Below are positions 7,969 through 29,493 of a stretch of 64,000 nt of DNA, piece by piece. Location of the stretch: the sequence record NC_048170.1. The stretch is one strand, 5' to 3'. The position numbers and the translations under genes were made by a program. Each line of letters starts with the position of its first letter. Positions within the stretch are counted from its first letter, which is position 1. Under the pieces are notes generated by a model that had not been told where the DNA came from, ran no database searches, and worked only from the letters and a program-made list of their open reading frames with translations. Source of the DNA: Escherichia phage vB_EcoM_Goslar.

Positions 7969-7983
7969 AACAAAATAGCGTGA

Positions 7984-8030
7984 GCATAACCCTCCTCCAA
8001 CCCGTAAGGGAAGGAGGAGGGAATATGCTG
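7984..8030. terminator. Bidirectional stem-loop between convergent genes (CCCTCCTCC / GGAGGAGGG arms, extended by CATAAC...ATGCTG flanks)
   Basis: Near-perfect inverted repeat read directly; lies between the + gene ending 7968 and the - gene ending 8031. Confidence 0.6.
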
Positions 8031-10823: not shown

Positions 10824-10838
10824 AAAACACTCCGTTGG

Positions 10839-10869
10839 CCTAGGGGAAGGTTTTCAGCCTTCCCCTAGG
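10839..10869 (-). terminator. Stem-loop (CCTAGGGGAAGG / CCTTCCCCTAGG) between tandem minus-strand genes; terminator or attenuator
   Basis: 12-bp perfect inverted repeat; followed on the minus strand by GTTTTAT and then the next start codon. Confidence 0.5.
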
Positions 10870-10882
10870 GTTATAAACACAA

Positions 10883-13687
10883 TTAAGCTAATTTACCGAA
10901 ACCGGCTTTCTGCAGTTTCTCGTTGATGATTTTCGCTTCAGCGAAGACGTAATCGCGGTAGGCGGTCACTAACGCATCCACACGTGAACGCAAGGCTTCT
11001 TCGAAGCTATACCACGCAGCGATTTCACGAATCTGTGCGTTGATATAATCAACGGTTGAGCGAAGCTCGGTTGCGTTTTCCTGCGGGATGGCTTTCACCT
11101 GGCGAGCAACGTCATTTAAACGACGGAACTGTGTTTCGATTTCTTTAAACTTATTGTCGGCAAGTTTGCTGAATTCGTCACCAGAACGGGTAAATAACAG
11201 ATAGCTGTTGCCATCAAGTGCGGTCGCTAACTGCTGAAGTACGTTGGTGTCCGGATACACAGGAGTACCGCTTTGCAGTACCTTCTCACCGAATTCCGCG
11301 AAGTCCTTCGGTGGTAAGTGCGCAGACGTTGTCAACTCGTTGAAACGGAAAGTCAGCGAACTATCATACAACATCCGGTACGCTTCCATACCCTGCTTCA
11401 TGGTGCCAGCCAGGTTGGCCAGACGCGGAGCAATCTCACCCTCTTTAGCGCGTTTCTGGTCTTCTAACGCCCCTTCGAGTTCTTTACACTGGTCGTTCAG
11501 ATACACGATACGATCGGGACGCAGACGACGCATCTCACGAAGAATGGTATCCAGCTTACCTTCCTGGAAATAACCTAGCGTTAAAGACGTACACGCTTGC
11601 TGAAGACGATCGAACACCGGTAAGGTTACCATCTCCTTACGGATACCATCAACAATCGCAGAAACAGCCGAAAGTTTCTGTTCTGTCGTTAATGGAACAT
11701 CAGAGACCGACTTGCTGGGCGCACCAACAACGTTACGCATTGCGTCGGTATCCTCGGTTTTATCAACCTCTTTACGAACATGCTCATCAGGAACATAAAC
11801 GTTCGCATTACGTTTCGCCTGCTTGATGGCATCGTTGGCCGCTTTTTCGGTGGCTGCTACGCTATCGGCACGTTTCTTCAAGAGTTCAATAATCCAGAGC
11901 ACCAGACGACGAATCGCAGTATAGGCCGTCGTGATGATGACACCGATAACAGCCATCTTCATGATACCGAACGATTCCATGGTCGGCTCTAATGCCTGGT
12001 CTGGCATATAGCGTTCACGCAGCTCCAGATAGATCTGCTCATCCGGTTTGCTGATCTCGCCACGATGCGAAGTCCGATAGATGGCTTCGTCAATCTCAAC
12101 AAGATCTTTGCGTGCCTGACGGTCTGTTTCGGTCAAATAAGCGCAGCCGGATACGTCGTCTTCAAAACTTTCGAACTTAAAGAAATCGACAACCATCTTG
12201 GCAAGCGCCTCTTTCTTAGCAGGATCGAGTGTCTTCGCATCTTCTTTTTGCTTATCCATTTTTTCCTTGAATTTCTCTTTGTAGTCATTCAAGGGTTTTA
12301 CCGCTCTTGCTTTCAACGCGTTATAGATAGCTTTCCACTCATCGTTACGTTCGAGGACAATGAAATGGTTTTTGAGTTCGAAAGCGCGATAGCGTGCAAC
12401 GAGCTGTTCTACCTGAATATGAGCGAGTTGGATATCCATTAACCAACGCGACATCGCCGAGATCAAACGGCTATAAGCGAACAACGTTTGGTAGGTTAAC
12501 TTCATGTATGTTTCATACAGCTCAATATCGCCGCTCTGAATATTGGCTGTTGGATTCATTTCCTTTGTTGCCTTGAAGACCTGTTCTGCTTCTCTCAGCG
12601 TCTTTTCGAACTTAACGTCATTAAACGCAGTGAATGGTTCAGCCAACTCATGCATTTTATCGTGGAGTTCGCGGATCCAAGCTTCCTTGCTGTCGCGGAT
12701 GGTGTTTTCATCATGGAGCACGGTTTGATGTTTTCGTACCCATTCTTCCACGATATCAGCAGCGGAAACAATCGGAACGCGATCTGAAATGAGCGGGACG
12801 ATCGTGTGAAGCGCCCCGACACATTCTGGCGTGTCCCAGTGTTTCTGGAGTTCATCACGGAAACGGTTAATGTTTTCTAAGGTGGTACCTAAATCAAGGA
12901 AAGTGCCGCCATTATGACTCATCTGTGCAACCAGATCGGCAAATACCTTTTGTTTTTCGATGACAAAAGGAACCATCCGCATAAGCCATTCAGCAGTTGC
13001 TTTAGCCTTTTCTTTCAGGTTCTTATCGGCGATTTCTTTAAGGTTAATCGCGCTACCGTATCCTGCAAGTTCGTTGTAGACGTCGTTAACCGTCATCTCT
13101 TTATCCAACATTTCTTTGAAACGTGGATAATCTGCACCTAACGCGTCGATGACTTCTTGGATGATGTCGTCTGTGGTAGCGATAAATTTATTTGTGCCGC
13201 CGTAATGGTTCCAGATTTTCTGTAGCGTCTTCTTAAAGAATTCGAAGACGAATGTCCAGATACGCTTAATGAGTTCCCAGACTTTCTTCGCACCATCGAC
13301 AAACAGTTTAGAGACTTTGGCAACGAATCCTTCCTGCACCAACTCAACGCCGTTACGTGATGGAATTTCGGTGAAGAAAGCATCTGGCAGTTGTTTCGGG
13401 AACGCGTCACCAAGACGCATACGCAATTCGGGTACATCGGCACGAGAAATACCGCGCGTCGTTAACTGCTCGTGAAGACGAACGTTTTCTTCACCAGAGG
13501 CTACGAATTCGTTAACGTCAAATGACACCAGTTCTTGATCTTCGGTGGTGACGACGCTTGAACCATCACTGGTTTGGATGTCTTCGTCAGGGAATGCCAT
13601 GAGCATACCGTGACGCATTTCAACCACTCCGTAATCGGTTGCTAAACCGAATTCGTTGTGATCGGGGGTAATAACTGGGATACTCAT
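10883..13687 (-). CDS. Large hypothetical protein (934 aa), helical/charged, one hydrophobic segment
   Basis: ORF track. Confidence 0.85.
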   Translation of the reverse strand: MSIPVITPDHNEFGLATDYGVVEMRHGMLMAFPDEDIQTSDGSSVVTTEDQELVSFDVNEFVASGEENVRLHEQLTTRGISRADVPELRMRLGDAFPKQLPDAFFTEIPSRNGVELVQEGFVAKVSKLFVDGAKKVWELIKRIWTFVFEFFKKTLQKIWNHYGGTNKFIATTDDIIQEVIDALGADYPRFKEMLDKEMTVNDVYNELAGYGSAINLKEIADKNLKEKAKATAEWLMRMVPFVIEKQKVFADLVAQMSHNGGTFLDLGTTLENINRFRDELQKHWDTPECVGALHTIVPLISDRVPIVSAADIVEEWVRKHQTVLHDENTIRDSKEAWIRELHDKMHELAEPFTAFNDVKFEKTLREAEQVFKATKEMNPTANIQSGDIELYETYMKLTYQTLFAYSRLISAMSRWLMDIQLAHIQVEQLVARYRAFELKNHFIVLERNDEWKAIYNALKARAVKPLNDYKEKFKEKMDKQKEDAKTLDPAKKEALAKMVVDFFKFESFEDDVSGCAYLTETDRQARKDLVEIDEAIYRTSHRGEISKPDEQIYLELRERYMPDQALEPTMESFGIMKMAVIGVIITTAYTAIRRLVLWIIELLKKRADSVAATEKAANDAIKQAKRNANVYVPDEHVRKEVDKTEDTDAMRNVVGAPSKSVSDVPLTTEQKLSAVSAIVDGIRKEMVTLPVFDRLQQACTSLTLGYFQEGKLDTILREMRRLRPDRIVYLNDQCKELEGALEDQKRAKEGEIAPRLANLAGTMKQGMEAYRMLYDSSLTFRFNELTTSAHLPPKDFAEFGEKVLQSGTPVYPDTNVLQQLATALDGNSYLLFTRSGDEFSKLADNKFKEIETQFRRLNDVARQVKAIPQENATELRSTVDYINAQIREIAAWYSFEEALRSRVDALVTAYRDYVFAEAKIINEKLQKAGFGKLA

Positions 13688-14124
13688 GCATTCTCTCCTT
13701 GCAGTGCGTTAGCGAAAGCTGTTGCGAGCTGCGCAACCAGTTTCGGATCAACGCCTTCGATAACGTCAGGCAGCCCTGCGGTTTCTTGGTCACGAACAGC
13801 GGAGGCTAATAACAGCATGGTTTCAGGCGCGGTTGGCTCATGCACCATGCGGTAACGCAGGCACCAGAAGTAGCGGGCAACGTCTAACGCATCAGCCAGC
13901 CCAATAACCAGCACCTTGTTCAGTTTATCCAACCCGTCACGGATTTTAGGGAGATGTTCACGAACGAAGATGCTATCCGCAGTCAGATCTTCTTTTTCAG
14001 CGAATACCGGCATGCTGTAACCGGCGATGTAACCTGCGGCAATACTTAACGCGCGGGTCTGTTGTTCGGCTGGGAAGTCACGTACCAGGTCTTTCAGCTG
14101 AACGGCGAAATCAGAAATATTCAT
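13684..14124 (-). CDS. Hypothetical protein (146 aa)
   Basis: ORF track; 4-nt overlap with downstream gene. Confidence 0.75.
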   Translation of the reverse strand: MNISDFAVQLKDLVRDFPAEQQTRALSIAAGYIAGYSMPVFAEKEDLTADSIFVREHLPKIRDGLDKLNKVLVIGLADALDVARYFWCLRYRMVHEPTAPETMLLLASAVRDQETAGLPDVIEGVDPKLVAQLATAFANALQGENA

Positions 14125-14157
14125 GTTAAATTCCTTTATAGTAAAAAATAGAAGAGA

Positions 14158-15468
14158 TTAGGCGATAATGGAATCAAGAGTCGCTGCTGTTTTGAACAGA
14201 TCGCTGTTCATTGTAGAAGAAAGGACTTGCTGAATTTCTTCCTGTTTAACGGCTTTACGAACTCCAGGACGAAGGATAAGCGTAACCATCTGCATAAATG
14301 TACGGTTGTTGTTCATCGCGCTTAACGTTTCATCAATTGTTTTGATGGTATCTAACGTAGTGGAGCGTATGTCGCTAGGGAGGTCACGATCTTTCAGACG
14401 TATAATCAAATCTTGTTTGATTTTTCTGAATCGTTCCATATCGTTGTCATAGATGCTGTATGTCGGATCTAACCAAACTGCAAGCGCCATAGCAGCAACA
14501 AATATTGCCATACCAAGAATATTAACCGAGGTGAAGCTGATCGCTATCAAAATTGTCACGGCTGCATCTTTAATGAAGGAGAGCCAGAACATCGTTTTGG
14601 ACTTCATGGAGTTGGTGCCATAAAGCCGAAACATTTTAGCAAGCCCGCTAACGAGATACTCCCCACTGCCGTGACGTGTAGCGAACTGATCGGCCATGAA
14701 TTCGGAAGCAACGTCGGTATATCGTCCAGCGTTGTTTACATTTCTTAACTGCATCGCTTTGTTAGACACGTAAACCGTGTACCAGACACTACCATCGTCT
14801 GAATCACTGATTTTATTTACGTCGACGTTAGTATCTAGCGTTTTGTTTAACGCTTTCGCCAGTTCGATACGTTTTACCTTATCGGTTGTTCCCAACAGTT
14901 CGCGCTGCACGGTCATGATTGAGGCTTCGACACGAACCGTTTCCGACAATGTTTCAAGGAAAGTAAACGCATGACCGATTTCATGCAGCATTATGGCTGC
15001 TTTTTCTTCCGGAAGAAAGGGTTCTGTCGCTGTTAGCAATTCATACGTGATGGCAGAACGAATCTTCAACTCCTCAAAAATACCGTAAACGCGACCTTTT
15101 TCTAAATCGACGTAACCGACAGGTGCATCTTTAATCTTCTTAAGAAGTGCGACACCATCGACACCACGCATCCATAATCGATGATAGTCTGCCAATATCG
15201 CGTTGTTTGTTGAAATATCCGGCGGGTACACGTAGGCATTCATCTGGCCCATTTTCACGTCAACCGAAAATTCGATGTTCAACCCCGTATAGCGTTTAAC
15301 CATCTCGGTTAAACGACCGTCCTTGAAAACGTTTAAAACCTCTTTTTTATCCAGTCCCTGTTTGCTTCTGAAGAACTCGGTCATTTCCTTGAACAAGGAA
15401 CCATCCTGAAACTTGATGGCCTCCATCGTTAATTCGTCATGACCATACACGCGTTGTAGTAATGACAT
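14158..15468 (-). CDS. Putative membrane-anchored zinc metallopeptidase (M48/M56-like HExxH ... ExxADxxA)
   Basis: HEIGH motif, downstream EFMADQFA motif, hydrophobic helices about residues 285-330. Confidence 0.55.
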   Translation of the reverse strand: MSLLQRVYGHDELTMEAIKFQDGSLFKEMTEFFRSKQGLDKKEVLNVFKDGRLTEMVKRYTGLNIEFSVDVKMGQMNAYVYPPDISTNNAILADYHRLWMRGVDGVALLKKIKDAPVGYVDLEKGRVYGIFEELKIRSAITYELLTATEPFLPEEKAAIMLHEIGHAFTFLETLSETVRVEASIMTVQRELLGTTDKVKRIELAKALNKTLDTNVDVNKISDSDDGSVWYTVYVSNKAMQLRNVNNAGRYTDVASEFMADQFATRHGSGEYLVSGLAKMFRLYGTNSMKSKTMFWLSFIKDAAVTILIAISFTSVNILGMAIFVAAMALAVWLDPTYSIYDNDMERFRKIKQDLIIRLKDRDLPSDIRSTTLDTIKTIDETLSAMNNNRTFMQMVTLILRPGVRKAVKQEEIQQVLSSTMNSDLFKTAATLDSIIA

Positions 15469-15689
15469 TGTACACTCTCTAAATTTACGTAAATTTAAGG
15501 GCTAATGGATCGGCTGGCCGCACCAATCACAATGTGTCCGCTGCTATGCAACGGCATTCATAGAAATACCTTTTGACGGTAACATCACCCATCACACCCC
15601 AAGCAATAAGAGTGGTCGGTTAAAAACAACAGAACGTGAGGATGATATAGAAATTCACCTTTTAACACCTATTACGAGTTTATCAAGCC

Positions 15690-17189
15690 ATGAGCGAACA
15701 AGAACGAAAACCTAAGAAGAAACTGCTCGGTATTCAATGTCGACACATCAGCTATAACGAAGCGAACGATGGCAGCAAGAACGACCTCATGATCGCAAAA
15801 GAGATCATGTTCTTTGATGATAATACGCAAGCGACGAACCTTCGCTTCTTTGAGAATTACAAACGTCCGTTTTGGGTGACAGTAGAGAGTAAACGTAAGA
15901 ACAAATATAAAAAGGAAAGCGAGAAGCTGTCACATGTGCGACGCTACGATGTCCGTCAAAGTGAACTGGTTGAAAAGATCAGTTCGGTGCTTTATAAAAG
16001 ACGTGCCGATGATAACACCCGTTTACAGCAGCTTGCACGGAGTCCATACCTCTATGGAACGGACGTTAGCGCCAGCTGTTATTTAAAAACCCAATACAAT
16101 ACAAAATGGCCGGAATACGTCGATAAATTACCCGCTTCTATCGCCTGTTTCGATATCGAAACTGACGTTGTCCATGGACACGGTAAGATCGTCTGTATGT
16201 CTATTACAATGGGATACAATGCGATACTTTGCTATACCAAGGACTTCGTTGGTCATATTCCGAATGCGATTGAGAAAACTCATGAGAAGATTCGATATTA
16301 TCTGGCCGAACGTCTGAATACCAAAGAAGATCCTCACGCGTTCGAAAAATATCATTACGATGTGCGAATCGTAGAAAGTCCGGCACAAGCGGTCATCCAA
16401 TGCATGCAAAAGGTTCACGAATGGCAGCCGGATTATCTCCTCGGCTGGAATATCGCGTTCGATATTCCGCGCATGCTCCAGGCACTGAACGAGGAAGGGT
16501 ATCGTCCCGAGGATGTTTTCTCCGATCCTCGTGTACCACCTAAATATCGTATTGCTCGCTGGGTACCACCGAAGACCGACAAGGTATCTGCTTCAGGTCG
16601 TAAAACCAACCTTACCCTCGAGCAGACCTGGCCGATGTTTTATACGATGGCTACGTATCAGGTTATGGATGCGATGTGTGGCTATAAGTTCGTTCGTTTA
16701 GGAAGACCGGATGAAGGACGCTATTCACTCGATGCGGTATTAGAGCGAAATAAATGCCATACGAAATTAAAAGCGATTCCTGGTACAGAAGGGTTCACGG
16801 AGCTTGCGTGGCACGAAGAAATGCAAACGAACCATCAAATCGACTACGGCGTATATAACCTTTGGGATAACCAAGGCATCGAGGCGTTGGACCAGAAAAC
16901 AAAAGACTATTCGATGACCATCCCTATCCGTTTAGCGGCGTCGGATTTGAAAGATTTCAGTTCTAACCCTAAACGTATCTGCGATAAACTTTTCTTCGTT
17001 TATCTTAACCGTGGGGAAGTCATGGGATGCACCGCCGACGACATGACCCAGGAAGAAGATAAGTGGGTTATCTCACGAACCGGACATATCGTCACATTAC
17101 CATGCGATCTCATGGCGGACAACGGCATTCATCTCTTCTGGGATATGCCTAATTTAAGGAGCTATATTCGATTATTTGTTGCGGATTAA
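15690..17189 (+). CDS. Family B DNA polymerase (E. coli Pol II-like) 3'-5' exonuclease domain; ORF ends before the polymerase palm motifs
   Basis: Exo I CFDIETD, Exo II GWNIAFDIPRML, Exo III YNLWD in canonical order and spacing; no motif A/B/C in this ORF. Confidence 0.7.
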   Translation: MSEQERKPKKKLLGIQCRHISYNEANDGSKNDLMIAKEIMFFDDNTQATNLRFFENYKRPFWVTVESKRKNKYKKESEKLSHVRRYDVRQSELVEKISSVLYKRRADDNTRLQQLARSPYLYGTDVSASCYLKTQYNTKWPEYVDKLPASIACFDIETDVVHGHGKIVCMSITMGYNAILCYTKDFVGHIPNAIEKTHEKIRYYLAERLNTKEDPHAFEKYHYDVRIVESPAQAVIQCMQKVHEWQPDYLLGWNIAFDIPRMLQALNEEGYRPEDVFSDPRVPPKYRIARWVPPKTDKVSASGRKTNLTLEQTWPMFYTMATYQVMDAMCGYKFVRLGRPDEGRYSLDAVLERNKCHTKLKAIPGTEGFTELAWHEEMQTNHQIDYGVYNLWDNQGIEALDQKTKDYSMTIPIRLAASDLKDFSSNPKRICDKLFFVYLNRGEVMGCTADDMTQEEDKWVISRTGHIVTLPCDLMADNGIHLFWDMPNLRSYIRLFVAD

Positions 17190-17257
17190 CCTTCGTTCTG
17201 TAAAAGTTTACTTCATGTAAGAATCGTGTGCGGCATAAGAGAGGCCGATACATCTAG

Positions 17258-18469
17258 ATGTTACATGAGGTTTACGAGATGGAAAAATCTATACATACTC
17301 AAACTGGAACTATTGACTATCGCGATTCAGCATATTTGCCGTACACAAATCATCGTTATCGTATATTTGAAGATGGCGAGTTGTACGACTATAAAGAAGA
17401 TAGGGTCGTCCCTTACGAAGTTGTAGACGGTGTCCCTTATGTTGAAATCGATTGGTATAGAGGCATTGGAAAATACGATCTCGGTATGATCATTCTCACC
17501 GTTCTTGAACGGGTTGCTTTACCAGATCACCTTTACGATGAAATTGAATCGTTGTTTGTGGACGGAGATCCGACTAACTTTTCGTATAGCAATCACATCT
17601 ACCGTTTCCGTAATGGGCCGTTAGAAGTTGAGGGATTCGAAGGTTATTGTTATATTCCGTTTGCATCTCGTTACGCGATAAATAAAGAAGGACATTGTAT
17701 TAGTCTTCTTTCGTTGGATCCTATCACGTGGACGAAAACGGTTCAGCAAGGCACACGTCTTGGCGGATACGCTTATCGTAAAGTGGTTCCCGACAGCGGG
17801 TTTACACCGCAGTTATATCGTCACCGAGCTATCATGTTAGCGTTTACGAGATATGATGCTAACGTTGTGAACTTAACTGTAAATCATAAAAACGGAATTA
17901 AAGGTGACGATTGGTTTGACAACCTCGAATGGGCGACATATGCCGAGAACAATCAACATGCTCGTATGGCAGGGTTGTGTATAGGTACGTCAAAACCTGT
18001 TTTGGTTTATGATTACCGTGCACGAATCGAACGTCGTTTTAATAGTATCGCAGAAGCGGAACGTGCTTATCCGTACGTGCCGAAAGGACGTTTCAAATGG
18101 TGGGTAAACAATCCTCCGAAACGTATCCCAGAATGCGATTTATACATCAAGTTTGCCACGGACAATACGCCTTGGCCGGAGTGGAAACTTGGAGAAGATC
18201 GTCGTGTCGAGGACACCGACGGTCGCGGTATTCTCGCTATTAATAAAGAGACGAACGAACGACATGTGTTTCCATCAGTAACTGCTGCCGCAAATGCGTT
18301 AGGAATCTCCTGGATTACCGTAAGACGTCATTGCGATCGTCGTGCAGTACCTACGAAACAGCCTTGGTGTTTTCGTTACGCTGATGATATCGCTGCCATG
18401 CCTGATTTCGATGTTAATAAATTAGTTCCTAAGAAGAAGCGTGTATTTAATGTCCCATTAGAACGATAA
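17258..18469 (+). CDS. HNH homing endonuclease (403 aa)
   Basis: HNH motif LTVNHKNGIKGDDWFDNLEWATYAENNQHA; AGAGAGG RBS; location between polymerase gene segments. Confidence 0.8.
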   Translation: MLHEVYEMEKSIHTQTGTIDYRDSAYLPYTNHRYRIFEDGELYDYKEDRVVPYEVVDGVPYVEIDWYRGIGKYDLGMIILTVLERVALPDHLYDEIESLFVDGDPTNFSYSNHIYRFRNGPLEVEGFEGYCYIPFASRYAINKEGHCISLLSLDPITWTKTVQQGTRLGGYAYRKVVPDSGFTPQLYRHRAIMLAFTRYDANVVNLTVNHKNGIKGDDWFDNLEWATYAENNQHARMAGLCIGTSKPVLVYDYRARIERRFNSIAEAERAYPYVPKGRFKWWVNNPPKRIPECDLYIKFATDNTPWPEWKLGEDRRVEDTDGRGILAINKETNERHVFPSVTAAANALGISWITVRRHCDRRAVPTKQPWCFRYADDIAAMPDFDVNKLVPKKKRVFNVPLER

Positions 18470-18504
18470 CAGGTCCCCCTACTTGTAATGAGTGGGTGAA
18501 CTCT

Positions 18505-18905
18505 CTTTAATTGCTGGAAACCTTTAATGCCCCTCCACACCACAACGCAATCCGAAAGGGTAAACGTGATGGTTGTCGAAAGACAGAAAAAAGTTGGAGG
18601 GGATTACCTATGTTGCAATAAAAGCCACCGCTTTCTTGGATAACGAAAGATGACGGTGGTACTAAGGGTAGAAGATAGAAATAAGGTAACCGTAGCAGCG
18701 AAGACCCTACGGACTGTCGTGACCGACTCGATGAGTTGGCGTGGTTAACACGGACAGGCTACGGGTAACGTTCAACGACCATCCGGTTGCGCGGAGTAGG
18801 AGAATTAGGATGTTCTCTGAAAAGGGAGAAGTCGGTCGAGGTGTTGTAGAAACACCATTCGGTTTGCTAACGCAAACCTAAGGCAGGCTAAGATATGGTC
18901 TATTT
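18505..18905 (+). ncRNA. Candidate group I intron catalytic core (P-, Q-, R-, S-like elements)
   Basis: R-like GTTCAACGACCA (~18770) and S-like AAGATATGGTC (~18890) with a compensatory P7 pair (GACCA/UGGUC versus consensus GACUA/UAGUC); P-like AATTGCTGGAAA (~18509); Q-like AACCGTAGCAGC (~18687); several hairpins; no ORF on either strand. Confidence 0.5.
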
Positions 18906-18948
18906 TTCGTTGTGTTCATGTATAGAAATTACTGAACCATCGTAAGAG

Positions 18949-19203
18949 CTCGATATATCTTCAAGCTATCCAAATGGGCAGATACTGCTCAATCTATCCA
19001 GAGCATGTGTTTTTCGTGAGCTCTCACGCATTGAGGGCGTCTCTGACTATCAATTCAGGAAGCTAGGTATCAACTTTATCACTGGAGGTAAAACGAACGC
19101 TGTAGACTTCTGTAGAATCGTTTATAAAGCGCCATCGATGTTTGAACTTTTAGAACATTTCGATGCGACGCGTCCAAAAGAGGAAGCGCGGACCATCGAA
19201 TGA
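18949..19203 (+). CDS. Candidate downstream exon: start-less open frame with polB motif-A-like sequence (LDISSSYPNGQ), stop at 19201-19203
   Basis: 86-codon open frame with no start codon until its last 21 codons; DISSSYP resembles DxxSLYPS; joining after 17186 to 18949 would be in frame and obey U at the 5' splice site and G at the intron 3' end. Confidence 0.3.
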   Translation, partial: LDISSSYPNGQILLNLSRACVFRELSRIEGVSDYQFRKLGINFITGGKTNAVDFCRIVYKAPSMFELLEHFDATRPKEEARTIE

Positions 19204-19245
19204 ATCAAGTATGTTGATCCTCGTTTAACAAAAAGAAAACGCATG

Positions 19246-19284
19246 CGAAGCCCCTCCCCCTGGCGGAAGCCGGAGGGAGGGGTG
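19246..19284 (-). terminator. Rho-independent terminator of the gene ending at 19289
   Basis: CCCCTCCC...GGGAGGGG stem with inner CTGGC/GCCGG pairing, followed on the minus strand by a T-rich tract (GTTTTCTTTTTGTT). Confidence 0.65.
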
Positions 19285-19288
19285 AGGT

Positions 19289-19774
19289 TTATGCGCGTTC
19301 GTTGCCAACCGTTACTTTGTAGTCAGCGTCGGTTAAGAAAATAGACAGGAATCCATGTTCTTTGCAAATCTTACTAAGGATGTCAGCAATGATTTCGTTG
19401 ATCATCGGCTTGTTTGCAAGGGCATAGATGTACCCGGGTGTAAAAGAAAGTGCGTGATTGATCATAGGCTCATGAGAAGCCAAGATAAGGATCACGTGAT
19501 GCTTCCCATCGTCGGTAACGACCGCTTGCGTAGACACGAAGAAATCAGTGAAGCAGCAGCGATCACAGGCTTTAGGTATATACAAGTCACCCAGAGCTTC
19601 GTCACGTGCTTTTACGTGTGTTTCAGGGGTAATGCTGCTAAGTTGATCTTCAGCGAGATCCAAGACATCCTCAATCGTTTTAAGAATAGCGTTGCGGAAA
19701 TCCTCACGGTAGAATGGGATGATATCACGATCGTTCATGTAATCGCCGGATTCGATAGTAAAGTTGATGTTCAT
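19289..19774 (-). CDS. Hypothetical small protein (161 aa)
   Basis: ORF track; terminator immediately downstream; preferred over the overlapping + strand ORF 19355..19777. Confidence 0.75.
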   Translation of the reverse strand: MNINFTIESGDYMNDRDIIPFYREDFRNAILKTIEDVLDLAEDQLSSITPETHVKARDEALGDLYIPKACDRCCFTDFFVSTQAVVTDDGKHHVILILASHEPMINHALSFTPGYIYALANKPMINEIIADILSKICKEHGFLSIFLTDADYKVTVGNERA

Positions 19775-19884
19775 TGAATGCTCCTAGTGGTTATGTCGAT
19801 TGATTGATGTGTTAATTTATGTTTGATGGGGTATACTTGAAACTACAAATAAGGCTCTTGGCGTTGCTGTTATGGTTCAGTTCT

Positions 19885-20334
19885 TTATCCCTTGTTGGAT
19901 TCGTCAATATACTTGGTGTCGTAAGACAAATGCTGAATTAATTTTCTAGGTCTGATGAAAATACGACATGTGATAAACACATCGGGATCGTATTGTTCCA
20001 CGCAACGTCCGAAGGCTCGTTTTGCGGACTGACGCATCAAGGCTAATTCCTGATCGTTCATCTCATCATCAAATTCGATGAGTATTGTTATTTTATCGGG
20101 AAATAAATAGATAGAGTAATCGCTACCGATATCACCGTCGTCAAAACGATAATCGTTGTGGTAATGGCGGAGCTTACCTTCGTGCTCCGCCTGGTACCAC
20201 CCGACGATACTATCAAGGCCCATACCCAGGCGTCCGAATGCCTGATTAATAATATCATCAACGACGGATGCAGGTGTGGGGCCATTGAATAATCTATCCA
20301 GACATTTTTTCATCGATTTGGTTTTCACGTTCAT
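19885..20334 (-). CDS. Hypothetical small protein (~149 aa; probable start at the second Met, MNVKTK)
   Basis: ORF track 19885..20361; AGGAAAAG RBS before the internal ATG. Confidence 0.7.
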   Translation of the reverse strand: MNVKTKSMKKCLDRLFNGPTPASVVDDIINQAFGRLGMGLDSIVGWYQAEHEGKLRHYHNDYRFDDGDIGSDYSIYLFPDKITILIEFDDEMNDQELALMRQSAKRAFGRCVEQYDPDVFITCRIFIRPRKLIQHLSYDTKYIDESNKG

Positions 20335-20363
20335 TGTTTCTTTTCCTGTTATAGTCAACATAT

Positions 20364-20398
20364 AGCCCTTCCCCGGCCTTGACGGCTAGGGAAGGGGC
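20364..20398 (-). terminator. Stem-loop (AGCCCTTCCCC / GGGAAGGGGCT) between tandem genes
   Basis: Inverted repeat read directly. Confidence 0.5.
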
Positions 20399-20423
20399 TA
20401 GGTACGTTATTTATGCTTCATTA

Positions 20424-20909
20424 TCAACCAGAGATGTTGCACGTTTCTTCTTCGTCGAGTGCGTACTCCATTGTGTAGAATTCATAACCATCGGAAAACT
20501 TGAGTGTTACTGTAATAGGGAAATCGCACGGCATAGCTGATTTCTTAAATGCGTTATTAGCAACATCAGCCAACCGACGTATAGCATCAGTCCCGCTGAC
20601 ACTGAATGGTAGTTGTATGTTGATAAGGATGCGGTGCTTGTAAACATAGAAAACAACGGTGCTGTCAAGATAAACGCTATGGAACGGTATTGTTGGGATG
20701 CGTTCCACGATGGTAAAATACGTCCCATCAATATCACTATTTCCCACTGACCACTTATCGGATTTGCGTAGATTTTCTTTGAGGAATTCGACGCTTCGAG
20801 TGACAGCCTCAGTAGTAGGTGCGACGTATGCGTCTTTATGCGTGTCGAAAAGTTCGTTGACGTTAGATTTGAATGAATACGCTGTTGCCATTTTGATAAC
20901 ACCGGTCAT
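20424..20909 (-). CDS. Hypothetical small protein (161 aa), paralogous to 20952..21449
   Basis: ORF track; shared C-terminal pattern (MP..ITVTLKFSDGYEFY versus MPVTLTISGHDGSGLFEFHY). Confidence 0.75.
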   Translation of the reverse strand: MTGVIKMATAYSFKSNVNELFDTHKDAYVAPTTEAVTRSVEFLKENLRKSDKWSVGNSDIDGTYFTIVERIPTIPFHSVYLDSTVVFYVYKHRILINIQLPFSVSGTDAIRRLADVANNAFKKSAMPCDFPITVTLKFSDGYEFYTMEYALDEEETCNISG

Positions 20910-20951
20910 GTTTAATTGATGAGTATTCCATCTAGTAAGGGAATACGTTAT

Positions 20952-21449
20952 TTAGCTATCGATCTCGCCATCTTCAGGATGGTAGTGGAATTCGAATAGC
21001 CCTGAACCATCGTGCCCGCTGATTGTTAATGTAACAGGCATATCGAATCCTCGTACGCGTTTATGAAAACACTCCGCTAACTTACGTTCAGCGTAATCTA
21101 CTATTTCATCGGTTGCTTCGACGCCACCTGTTACGCTGAGCGTGATATCGATACTAATGATGTTATCATGCAACGCAAACCGCCAACGATCGATACGATT
21201 ATTATCTTCAGCAGGCGTCTCGTTTACAAGATAGATTTTATCGTCAGCTGACAAAGCGGGACTCCAGCAACGTTCGTTTATTAATTTCGCCTGGAGTTTT
21301 AGTATCGTCTGATCAATAATATCCCAACACGTAACCAGCGTGACGTCAGGCACTGAATTGAGAAGGGCGAGCACTTTATCCTTTATTTTAAGTGCTTCCG
21401 CAGGACGCCCGCAAATACCATGCATTTCAACTTTCTTATCCATATTCAC
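20952..21449 (-). CDS. Hypothetical small protein (165 aa), paralogous to 20424..20909
   Basis: ORF track; similarity to neighbour. Confidence 0.75.
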   Translation of the reverse strand: MNMDKKVEMHGICGRPAEALKIKDKVLALLNSVPDVTLVTCWDIIDQTILKLQAKLINERCWSPALSADDKIYLVNETPAEDNNRIDRWRFALHDNIISIDITLSVTGGVEATDEIVDYAERKLAECFHKRVRGFDMPVTLTISGHDGSGLFEFHYHPEDGEIDS

Positions 21450-21495
21450 TTCTTCACTTCTTTCTTAATCTAAATGTTAGTTGGGGATGGGATGC

Positions 21496-22128
21496 TTACA
21501 TGCTTTCTAACATATCGATGATCATGGAACCCATACCGAAACTCGGTCTCTCGCCGATGTACTCAGCAAGCTGACGATGAACGTCTTTTGGATTTCCTTC
21601 TTCACCGTCGGCATCGATGTAGACCGAAAAAGAAAATGAATCGGAATCCACGCTGATAACCAGACGGCGTTCATTGCGTTCCTTGAGTGTATCGACAATA
21701 GCCGCTTTCAGTACCGCGATCGCATTCATCGCGTGCAAGATGTCTCCATCGGGTTTCGGTAGATCGATCTTTTCTTTCAGGTCGATATTGATGTTGGTTA
21801 CAATTGGATTGAGGTCGACCTTGACATAATCGTTAGGGAAAACGCGAATAATTGCACGATCGATATCTGAACCGTAAAAGTCAACACGTGGCTTTAACAC
21901 TTCTTTGTTTGGATCCATGTTTTCATCCATCCCGGCCTGCAAGAAACGTTCTACGTTATCCAGTTCACGATAAACTGACGCTTCGATTTCTTTCAGATAG
22001 TTGGCTGCGGTTTCATGTTCTTTACGCAGCTCGTCTTTAAGGAGCTGTACGGTGACTTCACTAGAACGAATGCTGTTCGCGAATTGGGTAATTGACATAT
22101 CGAATTCCTTAAATTCTCTTGAGTTCAA
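21496..22128 (-). CDS. Hypothetical protein (210 aa)
   Basis: ORF track; AAGGAA RBS. Confidence 0.8.
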   Translation of the reverse strand: MNSREFKEFDMSITQFANSIRSSEVTVQLLKDELRKEHETAANYLKEIEASVYRELDNVERFLQAGMDENMDPNKEVLKPRVDFYGSDIDRAIIRVFPNDYVKVDLNPIVTNINIDLKEKIDLPKPDGDILHAMNAIAVLKAAIVDTLKERNERRLVISVDSDSFSFSVYIDADGEEGNPKDVHRQLAEYIGERPSFGMGSMIIDMLESM

Positions 22129-22146
22129 TTAATGATGAAAAGCTGT

Positions 22147-22172
22147 AAAAAAAAGGTGGGGCGAACCCCACC
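22147..22172 (-). terminator. Rho-independent terminator (GGTGGGGCGAACCCCACC hairpin with an 8-nt T run on the minus strand)
   Basis: Hairpin plus A8 on the + strand, directly downstream of the gene ending at 22197. Confidence 0.65.
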
Positions 22173-22196
22173 AAAACGTCAGACACACGCAGAAAA

Positions 22197-22622
22197 TCAA
22201 TTCAGTGATGCATATAACGCATAACGACTGTAGATCTCAACCGCCGGTCCGTTATGCGTTAACAGACCATCCCGGTTGTAATACTGGAAAAATGAATAAC
22301 GTTTGTCGAAGTGATAAACAAAAGCAATGTCTTTGCCGTCAAAACCTGTGATGCGTGGTCTGTTTTTATCTAACAATGCTTTGACTTTTAACAGTGTTGC
22401 CGCACGTGCTTTAACGTTAGGGATTAATCCATCACAGTCGATATAAACGGTGTAACCTGTTTCAGATGTTGCGACGGTTGTATTACGATTGACGCGGAAG
22501 ATTTTTGTTTCGTATGTACTATCTTCAAGAATTGGGTTTTGTTTTTCGTATTTTCGTTTACGTAGAAATTCTACAACGGTGATATAGTTAGCGGTAATAT
22601 GCCCGGTTATAGCTTGTAACAT
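22197..22622 (-). CDS. Hypothetical protein (141 aa)
   Basis: ORF track; preceded by the conserved upstream element. Confidence 0.75.
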   Translation of the reverse strand: MLQAITGHITANYITVVEFLRKRKYEKQNPILEDSTYETKIFRVNRNTTVATSETGYTVYIDCDGLIPNVKARAATLLKVKALLDKNRPRITGFDGKDIAFVYHFDKRYSFFQYYNRDGLLTHNGPAVEIYSRYALYASLN

Positions 22623-22735
22623 CTCGACATCCTTTTATATTGGATTGATTGCAATTGTCTTAAATAGATGATAAGATATTTTGCTCTTATCACTAAGGTA
22701 ATGTAGTCGTGAAATAAACTGCGTTAACAAGAAAT
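22623..22735 (-). promoter_or_regulatory. Conserved upstream element, copy A (second copy at 49717..49812): conserved flanks around a covarying hairpin, ending in AAGGA RBS and ATG
   Basis: Near-identical 25 nt (CATCCTTTTATATTGGATTGrTTGC on the + strand) and a second conserved block (CACyTAAGgTAATrTAGyCGTGAAA) flank hairpins of different sequence (GATAAGA/TCTTATC here, GGTGAAGC/GCTTCACC in copy B). Confidence 0.45.
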
Positions 22736-22797
22736 AAAAACAGCATAGAACCCTCCTCCCCCATCCTTCAAGAGGACGGTGGGAAGAGGGAGAGAGA

Positions 22798-23199
22798 TTA
22801 AATGTCGTGGACGGCATTGCCGTTTAACCAGCAATACAGTTTAACGCGACAGGAATACCGCTTCGTTGCAGCAACCATTTCATCGCGTAAACGCTGGTAG
22901 ATTTCATCCTGGTGTTCACGTTCAATGGGGTAATCAGCCCAACATTCGATCATGACGTCACCATTAGTCAGAATCGTCGTACGCATCCTGTCCTGGACAC
23001 GACGATCTTTCCCAGCATTAGGGAAATACATCCCTTCAGTACGAATAAGGTCGCCGCAGGGCATGACTAACCATTCGTTCGTTTTGCCGGTATTCTTATA
23101 ATCCATTACAGCTTGCATTGCGGTGTCAACGCTAAAAGAAACATAATTCCAAACGGATGTCCAACGATAGATTGCGGGTTGTTCGAGTGTTTCGTTCAT
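22798..23199 (-). CDS. Hypothetical protein (133 aa)
   Basis: ORF track. Confidence 0.75.
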   Translation of the reverse strand: MNETLEQPAIYRWTSVWNYVSFSVDTAMQAVMDYKNTGKTNEWLVMPCGDLIRTEGMYFPNAGKDRRVQDRMRTTILTNGDVMIECWADYPIEREHQDEIYQRLRDEMVAATKRYSCRVKLYCWLNGNAVHDI

Positions 23200-23254
23200 G
23201 GAGTGCTTTTCCTATTTTTATTTTCTGCACAGGATAAATTCAACGGCATAAAGC

Positions 23255-23285
23255 CCTTCCCTGCCCTTATATGGGGCGGGAAGAG
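23255..23285 (-). terminator. Imperfect stem-loop (CTTCCCTGCCC / GGGCGGGAAG)
   Basis: Inverted repeat in a 210-bp intergenic region. Confidence 0.45.
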
Positions 23286-23412
23286 TTTATGACCGCAATG
23301 AGAATCTCTCACGACAAGCTCACGACGATTATCGCATCACCCCGCGAGTGAGGGAGATCAGGATCACCTCCTACGTCGTAACGACAGCAATCCCGTTACG
23401 TCGCATTAGACG

Positions 23413-24051: not shown

Positions 24052-24076
24052 GTTTATTTCCTTTCATTTAACAAGG

Positions 24077-25378: not shown

Positions 25379-25391
25379 GTAACAACTCCTT

Positions 25392-26270: not shown

Positions 26271-26360
26271 TCCGATGCGGTAAATGTCTACTAGCTCTCA
26301 TAATCTATTGAAGAAACTACCAGCTTACGCCAACTTAGATTAATCAGGAGTAACCATCCC

Positions 26361-28917: not shown

Positions 28918-28918
28918 A

Positions 28919-29428: not shown

Positions 29429-29439
29429 TGCAACGGTAA

Positions 29440-29485: not shown

Positions 29486-29493
29486 TTATGCTA

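What the first reader, a model, noticed from the sequence alone, without database searches (positions are those of the whole stretch)
17187..19203. Candidate HNH-carrying group I intron splitting a family-B DNA polymerase gene
The Pol II-like exonuclease ORF stops at 17187-17189 and an HNH homing endonuclease ORF begins about 70 nt later. After the HNH ORF there are ~480 nt with no ORF on either strand, containing group I core-like elements in the canonical 5'-to-3' order: P-like AATTGCTGGAAA, Q-like AACCGTAGCAGC, R-like GTTCAACGACCA and S-like AAGATATGGTC. The R and S elements carry a compensatory change that keeps the P7 pairing (GACCA/UGGUC). Directly downstream (18946..19203) an 86-codon open frame has no start codon until its last 21 codons and contains LDISSSYPNGQ, resembling polB motif A (DxxSLYPS). 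Splicing after T17186 to nucleotide 18949, which follows a G, would give an in-frame ...FVAD|LDISSSYPN... junction.
Basis: partly seen in the sequence, partly recalled or inferred. Interest (0 to 1): 0.85.

Follow-up and report, generated by a model that had tools for sequence, protein, structure and literature searches.

The report
Mobile self-splicing intron in phage polymerase

Summary
Window 17187..18948 is a group I intron of subgroup IA. It splits a PhiKZ-type family-B DNA polymerase gene between D499 and L500, two codons upstream of the motif A aspartate.

Evidence:
- Rfam RF00028 hits at 44.7 bits, E 1.5e-9, which is below the cut-off of 50.
- The exon ends in U and the intron ends in G.
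- The joined 583-aa product differs by one residue from contiguous intron-less alleles in related phages.
- Covariation among seven allelic introns supports the fold.

The window is Escherichia phage Goslar. Its database entry calls only the 499-aa exon 1 "DNA polymerase".

New details:
- The HNH gene appears to sit inside the P1 loop.
- Goslar-like phages carry at least four diverged endonuclease lineages at this one site, plus intron-less alleles.
- Synonymous changes cluster at the junction.
- PhiPA3 has an unannotated ORF-less relative 6 nt downstream.

This is a new member of a known kind. Interest is moderate. Splicing itself is inferred, not shown.

The parts
15690..17186 (+). Exon 1 of the polymerase gene (499 codons): N-terminal and 3'-5' exonuclease domains. 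It ends ...GTT GCG GAT (V A D).
   Evidence: PHROG 3011 'DNA polymerase', E 2e-150. The homologue profile hits RB69 gp43 collinearly through Exo I/II/III. Identical to the protein named DNA polymerase of Escherichia phage vB_EcoM_Goslar.
17187..18948 (+). Group I intron, 1762 nt, subgroup IA. It starts UAA, an in-frame stop for exon 1, and ends in G18948 (omega-G).
   Evidence: RF00028 44.7 bits, E 1.5e-9. Intron-less alleles lack exactly this stretch. An allelic intron at the same site scores 70.4 bits.
17183..17187 (+). Exon half of P1: GGAU plus the first intron base U. U17186 is the 5' splice-site U.
   Evidence: Pairs with GGUCC 18472-18476. All 9 intron-bearing alleles have GGAT and all 3 intron-less alleles have AGAC. 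L034 differs from the intron-less sequence only at -4 and -1.
17193..17200 (+). 5' strand of the P1 extension (UCGUUCUG). It closes the loop that holds the endonuclease gene.
   Evidence: Pairs in register with UAGAACGA 18459-18466 across a 5x5 internal loop. The type B intron has a different 12-bp helix at the same place.
17258..18469 (+). HNH homing endonuclease ORF: 403 codons from ATG 17258, or 396 from the likelier start ATG 17279. Catalytic motif NHKNG...N...N around residue 209; NUMOD1 at residues 329-358.
   Evidence: Pfam NUMOD1 29.6 bits, HNH_3 23.3 bits. PHROG 59, E 3.5e-18. Weak I-HmuI 1U3E match at the motif. 24 synonymous against 5 non-synonymous differences to L008, and intact in four lineages.
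18459..18466 (+). 3' strand of the P1 extension (UAGAACGA). It overlaps the last codons of the endonuclease ORF.
18472..18476 (+). Internal guide sequence GGUCC. G18473 pairs with U17186; G18472 and A18471 can pair with the first two bases of exon 2 (a 2-bp P10).
   Evidence: AGGUCC is conserved in the type A, A' and B introns, while the adjacent P2 hairpin differs completely. The same GUCC guide is used by the PhiPA3 polymerase intron with a 9-nt P1 loop.
18478..18496 (+). P2 hairpin (CCUACUU / GAGUGGG).
   Evidence: MFE fold. Invariant in A6. Replaced by other hairpins in relatives.
18501..18508 (+). P3 5' strand (CUCUCUUU), pairing with 18821-18828.
   Evidence: 8 continuous pairs. P3 covaries across the family.
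18509..18697 (+). J3/4, P4 (18512-17 with 18690-97), P5 (18520-24 with 18683-87) and a ~160-nt branched P5 extension with GAAA tetraloops.
   Evidence: cmscan alignment. MFE. Four compensatory pairs in the helix at 18624-30 / 18654-60.
18698..18771 (+). P6 with extensions P6a, P6b and two terminal hairpins.
   Evidence: Compensatory changes in P6a and both hairpins.
18777..18781 (+). P7 5' strand (GACCA), pairing with UGGUC 18896-18900. This is the pseudoknot that holds the guanosine-binding site.
   Evidence: 100% paired in 7 alleles, with A-U changed to G-U in three.
18782..18817 (+). P7.1 (18782-95) and P7.2 (18800-17), the hairpins that define subgroup IA.
   Evidence: helices 17 and 18.
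18821..18828 (+). P3 3' strand (AAAGGGAG).
18833..18886 (+). P8 with two internal hairpins (18840-56 and 18861-78).
   Evidence: helices 19-21.
18896..18948 (+). P7 3' strand, the P9 region (exact pairing ambiguous) and the 3' tail ending in omega-G18948.
18949..19203 (+). Exon 2 (84 codons plus TGA). It begins CTC GAT ATA = L D I. D501 is the motif A aspartate. It has no start codon of its own, and the gene calls listed for related contigs show no gene here.
   Evidence: tblastn to 282 phage genomes inside their polymerase genes. Gap-free alignment. RB69 D411 alignment. No gene called there in L033-L038.

Best explanation
Window 17187..18948 is a mobile group I intron of subgroup IA in the PhiKZ-type family-B DNA polymerase gene of Escherichia phage Goslar.

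Splicing (inferred). The gene is transcribed as one pre-mRNA.
1. The ribozyme core (P3-P9, 18501..18947) folds downstream of the endonuclease ORF.
2. The guide GGUCC (18472-76) pairs with the exon end GGAU (17183-86), forming the G-U wobble at U17186.
3. A second helix (17193-200 with 18459-66) closes the 1.3-kb P1 loop that holds the ORF.
4. Exogenous guanosine bound in P7 attacks after U17186.
5. The freed exon 1 attacks after omega-G18948.
6. The exons are joined into an mRNA for a 583-aa protein reading ...FVAD-LDISSSYPNGQ.... This restores motif A, whose catalytic aspartate (D501) lies in exon 2.
7. The UAA that opens the intron stops ribosomes coming from exon 1.

Mobility (inferred). 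The intron ORF encodes an I-HmuI-like HNH/NUMOD1 endonuclease. It presumably nicks intron-less or heterologous alleles near the insertion site when related phages co-infect a cell. Recombinational repair then copies in the intron together with a short stretch of flanking exon.

What is shown here: the anatomy, the conservation of the fold, the exact junction, the presence/absence polymorphism, the clustered synonymous changes at the junction, and purifying selection on the endonuclease.

What is inferred: catalysis, endonuclease activity and homing.
For: 1. Ribozyme.
- RF00028 E 1.5e-9, full model 1-253; the only hit in the window.
- Allelic introns at the same site score 47.0 (L008) and 70.4 bits (L007).
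- A hand-built structure on 7 allelic introns gives 96.3% of cells paired, against 40-46% when the partners are slid. Ten pairs have double changes, against 0-1 when slid. 0 of 500 shuffles reach the covariation score.
- RNAalifold on 8 more distant relatives recovers P3, P4, P5, P6, P7.1 and P9, with 21 of 32 pairs compensated.

2. Junction.
- The joined product aligns without a gap to PA7 and RSF1 polymerases. A498, D499, L500 and D501 are invariant, and D499 and D501 stay invariant in 32 and 50 homologues.
- P0121 (583 aa, on 71 contigs) differs from the predicted product by one residue.
- The intron-less DNA alleles L020-L022 read ...GTTGCAGAC|CTCGA....

3. P1.
- AGGUCC is conserved in three intron types whose P2 hairpins differ.
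- Intron-bearing alleles always have GGAU and intron-less alleles AGAC. L034 differs from the intron-less sequence at only those two positions.
- The MFE duplex reproduces P1 plus its extension in the window (with L008, which has the same helix sequences) and in L007.
- PhiPA3 uses the same GGAU/GUCC pairing with a 9-nt loop.

4. Endonuclease.
- HNH_3 and NUMOD1 matches; PHROG 59.
- The motif is kept in four lineages that are 41-79% identical, with no internal stops.
- 24 synonymous against 5 non-synonymous changes between the window and L008.

5. Mobility.
- Both 583-aa and 499-aa forms occur in one 90%-identity cluster.
- Three intron types sit in genes whose exon 1 protein is 99-100% identical.
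- There are 10 mismatches in the last 45 nt of exon 1, against about 3 per 60 nt elsewhere.

6. Function in vivo. Goslar is a propagated laboratory phage, although its motif A aspartate lies beyond the intron.
Against: - The Rfam score is below the curated cut-off (44.7 against 50; one search reports nothing).
- No RNA data were examined, so splicing is not demonstrated.
- P10 is only 2 bp, and the P9 pairing is ambiguous between two alternatives.
- The shuffle significance of the window's own P1 duplex is modest (fraction 0.058).
- One helix of the MFE-derived P5 extension is not supported (68.6% paired).
- Pfam HNH_3 is just under its cut-off (23.3 against 24.8).
- The spliced product has no motif B or C. 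Its essentiality therefore rests on analogy with other family-B enzymes and on its conservation.
- The clustered synonymous changes could reflect selection for P1 pairing or for endonuclease immunity rather than co-conversion.
Confidence: 0.93

Rival explanations
1. Fragmented gene with a free-standing endonuclease. The HNH gene inserted into the polymerase gene and split it into two separately translated pieces, as in split gene 43 of Aeromonas phage Aeh1. No RNA splicing takes place.
For: - HNH genes do occur free-standing in phages.
- The gene calls listed for related contigs show exon 1 and the HNH ORF as separate genes and nothing for exon 2.
- PhiKZ-type polymerases lack motifs B and C in this polypeptide, so split architectures are plausible in this clade.
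Against: - Exon 2 has no ATG, GTG or TTG start until 21 codons from its end, and no gene is called there.
- A complete group I core lies exactly between the ORF and exon 2, and its helices are kept by compensatory changes.
- The boundaries obey the U(-1)/omega-G rule and restore the intron-less protein to the residue.
Confidence: 0.03
2. Decayed intron. The element was once a self-splicing intron, but in the window's variant the ribozyme no longer works on its own. Splicing would then be inefficient or depend on a protein helper, or the gene would be a pseudogene.
For: - The RF00028 score is sub-threshold for type A (44.7 and 47.0 bits), whereas type B scores 70.4.
- P10 is weak.
- A 1.3-kb insertion in the P1 loop must be brought together for 5' splice-site recognition.
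- Some type A' alleles carry two mismatches in P3 (helix 2).
Against: - All core helices are intact in the window: P3 has 8 bp, P7 5 bp, and P4, P6, P7.1 and P7.2 are present.
- The low score is explained by large peripheral insertions, which the model treats as inserts (alignment).
- The exon 2 amino-acid sequence is identical over the 15 codons compared across alleles, despite many synonymous changes. The full 84 aa are identical in P0001 and P0121.
- The phage is viable.
- A dedicated long-range helix closes the loop.
Confidence: 0.04

Closest known systems
Bacillus phage SPO1 / SP82 DNA polymerase introns encoding I-HmuI / I-HmuII, and phage Bastille I-BasI (Goodrich-Blair and Shub; Landthaler and Shub; cited in PMC12908238 and PMC11620839)
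   Same: - A group I intron in a phage DNA polymerase gene, encoding an HNH endonuclease with an I-HmuI-like motif.
- Related phages carry similar introns with highly divergent ORFs at one site. That is the setting in which competition between intron endonucleases and marker exclusion was described.
   Different: - Those polymerases are family A and the hosts are Gram-positive Herelleviridae. Here the gene is a PhiKZ-type family-B polymerase of a nucleus-forming E. coli phage.
- Here the ORF appears to lie in the P1 loop.
- Endonuclease activity is untested here.
PhiPA3 gp210 intron in the RNA polymerase beta-subunit gene (Birkholz et al. 2024, PMC11620839)
   Same: - Chimallivirus host.
- A putative group I intron with an HNH endonuclease, inserted next to conserved catalytic aspartates of an essential polymerase.
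- Relatives of the window's ribozyme sit in RNA polymerase genes. L013 is at the NAD|FDGD motif. Vibrio phage vB_pir03 scores RF00028 54.7 bits.
   Different: - A different gene: RNA polymerase rather than DNA polymerase.
- gp210's biological effect was shown experimentally. Nothing of that kind is known for the Goslar element.
- Sequence relatedness of the two endonucleases was not tested here.
ORF-less group I intron in the PhiPA3 DNA polymerase gene (found here; L039 about 3657-3999)
   Same: - The same gene and the same motif A.
- The same exon end GGAU, the same guide GUCC and the same core family.
- RF00028 71.7 bits.
   Different: - Inserted 6 nt further downstream (ADLD| instead of AD|LD).
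- About 340 nt long, with no ORF and an ordinary 9-nt P1 loop.
T4 td, nrdB and sunY introns (subgroup IA2, from my own knowledge) and the Pseudomonas phage LUZ24 polymerase intron (PMC10914365)
   Same: - Phage group I introns in DNA-metabolism genes, with splicing restoring the reading frame.
- The T4 introns share the P7.1/P7.2 architecture and have an in-frame stop soon after the 5' splice site (from my own knowledge; neither feature was checked for LUZ24).
   Different: - The T4 endonucleases are of GIY-YIG or other types and sit in P6a or P9.1 (from my own knowledge).
- The LUZ24 intron is 669 bp long.

Membership tests
Group I intron (Rfam RF00028) | Conserved catalytic core: P3-P4-P5-P6-P7-P8 in canonical order, with the P3/P7 pseudoknot and the conserved P, Q, R and S segments. 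| tested here: met
   cmscan aligns model positions 1-253 to 18405..18923, E 1.5e-9. All helices form canonical pairs at explicit coordinates.
Group I intron (Rfam RF00028) | Operational threshold, not a biological feature: bit score at or above Rfam's gathering cut-off (50). | tested here: not met
   44.7 bits in the window and 47.0 in L008. The model treats the ~160-nt P5 extension and the P6, P7.2 and P8 insertions as inserts. Related introns pass: 70.4 bits for the type B allele at the same site and 71.7 for the PhiPA3 polymerase intron.
Group I intron (Rfam RF00028) | 5' splice site after a U that forms a G-U wobble with an internal guide sequence (P1). | tested here: met
   U17186 pairs with G18473 within GGAU/GUCC. 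The guide is conserved across intron types. Intron-less alleles have C at -1 and A at -4.
Group I intron (Rfam RF00028) | Intron ends in a guanosine (omega-G), and the exons join precisely. | tested here: met
   G18948. All nine intron alleles end in G. The junction equals the intron-less alleles.
Group I intron (Rfam RF00028) | Secondary structure maintained by compensatory substitutions. | tested here: met
   10 pairs with double changes against 0-1 in the slid controls, and 0 of 500 shuffles. 21 of 32 pairs compensated in distant relatives.
Group I intron (Rfam RF00028) | Guanosine-dependent self-splicing. | not testable with these tools
   Needs an in vitro transcript plus GTP, or RNA from infected cells.
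Subgroup IA group I introns | Extra hairpins P7.1 and P7.2 between P7 and the 3' strand of P3. | tested here: met
   18782-95 and 18800-17. Helices 17 and 18 are 100% and 91% paired, with one compensatory pair. P7.1 was recovered by RNAalifold. No finer subgroup was assigned.
HNH homing endonucleases of the I-HmuI type | HNH (beta-beta-alpha-metal) catalytic motif. | tested here: met
   PHROG 59 'HNH endonuclease', E 3.5e-18. NHKNGIK...N...W.T..ENN.H is conserved in four lineages. Pfam HNH_3 scores 23.3 bits, just under its 24.8 cut-off. The I-HmuI 1U3E match is only E 0.57.
HNH homing endonucleases of the I-HmuI type | Modular DNA-binding domain (NUMOD). | tested here: met
   NUMOD1 29.6 bits, above the 22.8 cut-off, at residues 329-358.
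HNH homing endonucleases of the I-HmuI type | Site-specific nicking or cleavage of the cognate allele, and homing. | not testable with these tools
   Indirect evidence only: presence/absence polymorphism, clustered exon changes and purifying selection.
Family B DNA polymerase (T4/RB69 gp43-like, PhiKZ clade) | Exo I, II and III motifs and motif A (DxxSLYPS), collinear. | tested here: met
   A profile of 32 homologues hits RB69 gp43 (1CLQ), E 1.2e-6. The segments align DIET, WNxxFD and YNxxD, and aDLDvsssYP aligns to SFDLTSLYP. Pfam DNA_pol_B_exo1 is weak (E 0.008). The literature places PhiKZ polymerases as sister to T4-like PolB (PMC4889955, PMC7824862).
Family B DNA polymerase (T4/RB69 gp43-like, PhiKZ clade) | Motif B (KxxxNSxYG) and motif C (DTDS) in the same polypeptide. 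| tested here: not met
   The product ends 83 residues after motif A's aspartate. A regex scan of all six frames of the window finds no such motif. The product is therefore the N-terminal part of a polymerase. Where the remainder is encoded was not determined.

The most novel reading that the evidence does not exclude
The polymerase motif A of Goslar-like nucleus-forming phages may be a battleground. At least four diverged HNH endonuclease lineages, carried by three intron types, plus intron-less alleles recoded at the junction, circulate in phages whose polymerase proteins are 99-100% identical.

Under this reading the endonucleases act as interference-competition weapons between co-infecting phages, as shown for PhiPA3 gp210. 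The synonymous recoding around the site would act as immunity. Success would depend on import of the endonuclease into the rival's phage nucleus.

A secondary novelty is that a 1.2-kb gene is housed inside the P1 loop. 5' splice-site recognition would then depend on a long-range helix that overlaps the ORF's last codons, which could couple translation of the endonuclease to splicing.
Probability: 0.3. Interest if true: 0.6.

Novelty: new member of a known kind. Interest (0 to 1): 0.4.

Why it matters
- Goslar is a standard E. coli model for nucleus-forming jumbo phages. Its database entry lists a truncated 499-aa 'DNA polymerase' that lacks the motif A aspartate. The correct product is a spliced 583-aa protein. 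This matters for annotation, structural work and proteomics.
- I found no mention of this intron in the searchable literature.
- The natural set of intron-less alleles and several diverged intron/endonuclease variants at a single site gives a ready-made, genetically tractable system. It could be used to study homing, co-conversion and endonuclease competition when genomes replicate inside a protein-walled nucleus.
- The same approach exposed an unannotated intron in the PhiPA3 polymerase gene. It also suggests that many metagenomic PhiKZ-type polymerase genes are interrupted at motif A.
- The mechanism itself is textbook, so the surprise for a specialist is modest.

Tried and rejected
1. Local guide sequence. 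GUUC 17195-98 could pair with GGAU to give an 8-nt P1 loop, with the ORF then in P2. I rejected this for three reasons: it is not conserved in type B introns; it uses the bases that form the long-range helix; and AGGUCC after the ORF is conserved next to unrelated P2 hairpins.
2. Rfam at the gathering threshold found nothing. The hit appears only with the E-value threshold.
3. blastn and megablast of the region against the phages, plasmids and E. coli complete-genome collections gave only short matches to the intron core, or nothing. Goslar itself seems absent from the phage collection.
4. A junction pattern with the window's own exon 1 codons found no intron-less allele in IMG/VR. A codon-degenerate pattern in the metagenome collection found three.
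The truncated '...ADLD' homologues could therefore not be inspected as DNA. The search for related loci with P0076 returned loci that run through the junction uninterrupted, apart from two distant ones (L031, L032) whose frames stop earlier and were not examined.
The profile-versus-PDB search replaced it. A single-sequence PDB search gave nothing.
7. MAFFT misaligned the window's 3' half when 12 family members of unequal size were aligned together. I did not use that alignment. I did not build a covariance model because the model length would exceed the calibration limit.
8. The sigma-70 promoter and terminator scan of 15400..19500 was at background level.
9. The regex search for motifs B and C found nothing in the window.
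10. The L013 P1 duplex used a boundary one base off. I do not rely on it.

Full report
**What is in the sequence.** The + strand ORF 15690..17189 (499 codons) ends ...TTT GTT GCG GAT TAA. An ORF with Pfam NUMOD1 (29.6 bits) and HNH_3 (23.3 bits) matches begins 69 nt later, at 17258..18469. PHROG 59 'HNH endonuclease' matches it at E 3.5e-18, and there is a weak match to I-HmuI (1U3E) at the catalytic motif. From 18946 a frame is open to 19203, with no start codon until 21 codons from its end. All coordinates in the finding are correct.

**Is it a group I intron?**
- Rfam at its curated threshold reports nothing in the window.
- With an E-value threshold, RF00028 matches 18405..18923 over the full model, at 44.7 bits and E 1.5e-9. 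For the whole window on both strands the E-value is 3.9e-8, and this is the only hit below 0.01.
The score shortfall comes from long inserts in P5, P6, between P7 and P3', and in P8.
- I assigned the helices by hand and checked that every pair is canonical:

| Helix | Coordinates |
|---|---|
| P2 | 18478-84 / 18490-96 |
| P3 | 18501-08 / 18821-28 |
| P4 | 18512-17 / 18690-97 |
| P5 | 18520-24 / 18683-87, with a branched extension |
| P6 and extensions | 18698-18771 |
| P7 | 18777-81 / 18896-900 |
| P7.1 | 18782-95 |
| P7.2 | 18800-17 |
| P8 | 18833-86 |

- P7.1 and P7.2 place the intron in subgroup IA, the subgroup usual in phages.
- The RNA folds better than shuffles (z = -2.4), and the MFE recovers P2, P4/P5, P7.1 and the P8 hairpins.

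**The host gene and the junction.**
- Exon 1 matches PHROG 3011 'DNA polymerase' at E 2e-150.
- By tblastn, exon 1 and the downstream frame each hit about 285 PhiKZ-like jumbo phage genomes inside one contiguous gene. In PA7 the two hits abut at the same codon.
- Joining T17186 to C18949 gives a 583-aa protein that aligns to PA7 gp298 and RSF1 gp189 without a gap at the junction. A498, D499, L500 and D501 are invariant. D499, D501, Y506 and P507 remain invariant in 32 and 50 homologues.
- A profile of the homologues hits RB69 gp43 (1CLQ) at E 1.2e-6, collinearly through Exo I, II and III. It aligns aDLDvsssYP to RB69 SFD411LTSLYP.
- The intron therefore sits two codons upstream of the motif A aspartate of a divergent T4-like family-B polymerase. 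This agrees with the published placement of PhiKZ polymerases (PMC4889955, PMC7824862).
- The product stops 83 residues after that aspartate, and no motif B or C occurs in any frame of the window. It is only the N-terminal part of a polymerase, and the remainder was not located.

**Identity of the window.** IMG/VR holds a 237,307-bp contig that is identical over the 9.5-kb stretch fetched, which covers the whole locus (L006). That length equals the published genome size of Escherichia phage vB_EcoM_Goslar (PMC6563267). The 499-aa exon 1 protein is identical to the sequence that public databases name 'DNA polymerase [Escherichia phage vB_EcoM_Goslar]'. The window is therefore Goslar, positions 64001-128000 of that copy. 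The Goslar genome paper contains none of the words intron, homing or HNH. Searches combining Goslar or Chimalliviridae with intron, homing endonuclease, HNH or self-splicing found no description of this element.

**Intron-less alleles.**
- Searching with the predicted spliced product returned P0001, a 583-aa protein 99% identical and contiguous through ...FVADLDISSSYPNGQ....
- Its 90% cluster holds both 583-aa and 499-aa members, mostly from Salmonella and E. coli isolate assemblies. One 583-aa sequence is on 71 contigs and the Goslar-identical 499-aa sequence on 51. P0121 differs from the predicted product at one residue.
- A codon-degenerate junction pattern retrieved three intron-less DNA alleles (L020-L022). 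They read ...TTC GTT GCA GAC|CTC GAT....
- This fixes the junction independently of any splicing rule.

**P1 and the position of the ORF.**
- Immediately after the ORF's stop, and immediately before P2, lies AGGUCC (18471-76). The diverged intron of L007 at the same site (see next section) has the same AGGUCC next to a completely different P2 hairpin: GGUGGGG/CCCCACC instead of CCUACUU/GAGUGGG.
- GUCC pairs with the exon end GGAU, with U17186 opposite G18473 as the wobble pair. G18472 pairs with the first intron base.
- Natural variation supports this pairing. All nine intron-bearing alleles end GGAT, and all three intron-less alleles end AGAC. L034 is identical to the intron-less sequence over the last 24 nt of exon 1 except at positions -4 and -1.
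- Because the guide follows the ORF, the endonuclease gene lies inside the P1 loop.
- A second helix closes that loop. UCGUUCUG 17193-200 pairs with UAGAACGA 18459-66, in register with P1 across a 5x5 internal loop. In type B introns a different, perfect 12-bp helix (AAAUCGGUUAAG / CUUAACCGAUUU) occupies the same place. In type A' the 3' strand differs but still pairs.
- Duplex folding recovers P1 plus the extension in each case. The fraction of shuffles doing as well is 0.058 for the window and 0.011 for L007.
- A local alternative guide (GUUC 17195-98) is not conserved, and I rejected it.
- P10 is only two pairs (C18949-G18472 and U18950-A18471). The P9 pairing is ambiguous.

**Several intron variants at one site.** Contigs whose exon 1 protein is 99-100% identical to the window's carry three intron types, all inserted after GCGGAT, all starting TAA and all ending in G:

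| Type | Loci | Length |
|---|---|---|
| A | window, L008 | 1762 nt |
| A' | L033, L034, L035, L037, L038 | 1705-1707 nt |
| B | L007, L036 | 1536-1537 nt |

- Type A' is about 73% identical to A overall, but its ribozyme is about 92% identical to A's. Type B is barely alignable to A, and its L007 member scores RF00028 70.4 bits.
- The endonucleases fall into four lineages of 403, 378, 377 and 368 aa. They are 41-79% identical to one another, all are intact, and all keep the NHKNG...N...N motif.
- The window and L008 differ at 24 synonymous and 5 non-synonymous codons. The endonuclease is therefore under purifying selection while evolving much faster than its host gene or its ribozyme.

**Covariation.**
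- I counted a hand-built structure, including the P7 pseudoknot, on the seven type A and A' ribozymes. 96.3% of cells are paired, against 40-46% when the partners are slid by 1-3 columns. Ten pairs carry changes on both sides, against 0-1 in the slid controls. No shuffle in 500 reaches the observed covariation score.
- The structure was derived from the window sequence, so the paired percentage is partly circular. The double changes are not.
- The double changes lie in the P5 extension (four pairs in one helix), P6a, both P6 hairpins, P7.2 and P8b.
- One MFE-derived helix of the P5 extension is not supported.
- Separately, RNAalifold on eight more distant relatives that do not include the window recovers P3, P4, P5, P6, P7.1 and P9, with 21 of 32 pairs compensated.

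**Footprint around the site.** Against the intron-less alleles, the last 45 nt of exon 1 carry 10 mismatches, all synonymous. The rest of the exon averages about 3 per 60 nt. The first seven codons of exon 2 occur in at least five synonymous versions among the alleles. Three explanations fit and were not separated here: co-conversion tracts from homing, selection for P1 pairing, and recoding that alters endonuclease recognition.

**Relatives elsewhere.** A 29-nt P7/P7.1 pattern finds related introns in eight further viral contigs.
- The L013 intron splits an RNA polymerase beta' gene inside NAD|FDGD. It also has GGUCC after a decayed ORF.
- Vibrio phage vB_pir03 has a relative in its RNA polymerase beta' gene, at RF00028 54.7 bits.
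- Of 289 isolate phage genomes with this polymerase gene, 283 are contiguous across the junction.
- PhiPA3 is one exception. Its annotated polymerase CDS stops after ...HVADLD, and the continuation IVSTYPNVSQ... lies unannotated about 340 nt downstream. RF00028 scores 71.7 bits between them.
- The PhiPA3 intron has no ORF and an ordinary 9-nt P1 loop. It uses the same GGAU/GUCC pairing, 6 nt downstream of the Goslar site.
- Many metagenomic homologues end at exactly ...ADLD, which suggests the PhiPA3-type insertion is common. I could not fetch their DNA.

**Mechanism, and what is shown versus inferred.**
- Shown: the anatomy, the conserved fold, the exact junction, the polymorphism, and selection on the endonuclease.
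- Inferred from the established chemistry of group I introns: guanosine attack after U17186, exon ligation after G18948, and a spliced mRNA for the 583-aa protein.
- Inferred from the I-HmuI family: the ORF product nicks rival alleles, and repair copies the intron in.
- Goslar is propagated in laboratories although its motif A aspartate lies beyond the intron. This argues that splicing works in vivo, but no RNA data were examined.

**Verdict.** The finding is real and correctly interpreted. It is a new, apparently unannotated, member of a well-known kind: an HNH-bearing group I intron in a phage polymerase gene. Useful extras are the ORF in the P1 loop, the multi-allelic site in a model nucleus-forming phage, and a second unannotated intron in PhiPA3. 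Interest is moderate, at 0.4.

Noticed in passing
L039 (Pseudomonas phage PhiPA3, NC_028999.1) about 3657-3999, with exon 2 to about 4236: The annotated PhiPA3 DNA polymerase CDS stops right after ...HVADLD. An ORF-less group I intron follows (RF00028 71.7 bits, E 5.6e-18), and then an unannotated frame IVSTYPNVSQILNIARETT.... The insertion is 6 nt downstream of the Goslar site and uses the same GGAU/GUCC P1.
   Followed up: partly
L013 11113-11776 (IMGVR_UViG_3300006805_000048); L003 3431-3810 (Vibrio phage vB_pir03); L004 (Listeria phage LPJP1, after rpoB); L005 (Staphylococcus phage Quidividi, after the tail tube gene): Relatives of this ribozyme interrupt other core genes. In L013 the intron splits RNA polymerase beta' inside NAD|FDGD and holds a decayed NUMOD-like ORF before the guide sequence. 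In vB_pir03 the beta' gene is annotated as two CDS with RF00028 at 54.7 bits between them. The Listeria and Staphylococcus matches were not confirmed as introns.
   Followed up: partly
Proteins P0042, P0076, P0057, P0080, P0086 and others: About twenty of the 120 listed homologues are 457-508 aa long. The three read (P0042, P0076, P0064) stop at ...ADLD or a few codons later. This suggests widespread interruptions at motif A in metagenomic PhiKZ-like phages. Their DNA could not be fetched.
   Followed up: partly
Window 19246-19285: A G+C-rich inverted repeat (CCCCTCCCCCTGGC ... GCCGGAGGGAGGGG, loop GGAA) lies between the end of exon 2 and the convergent gene 19289..19774. It is a possible bidirectional terminator, but the simple terminator scan did not call it.
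   Followed up: no
Cluster of P0001: Goslar-like phage contigs of 236-248 kb turn up in many Salmonella enterica and E. coli isolate assemblies. One 583-aa sequence is on 71 contigs and one 499-aa sequence on 51. These phages therefore travel with cultured isolates, whether by carrier state or contamination.
   Followed up: no
L033 and L034 against L035, L037 and L038, alignment A6 columns 235-297 and 352-359: Type A' ribozymes are mosaics. L033 combines an A'-type 5' strand of P6a with an A-type 3' strand, which weakens the helix. L035, L037 and L038 carry two mismatches in P3. This looks like recombination between intron variants.
   Followed up: no
Window 1..64000, all frames: No motif B (KxxxNSxYG) or motif C (DTDS) of a family-B polymerase occurs anywhere in the window. 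The fingers, palm and thumb part of this polymerase must be encoded elsewhere in the genome or be unrecognisably diverged.
   Followed up: partly
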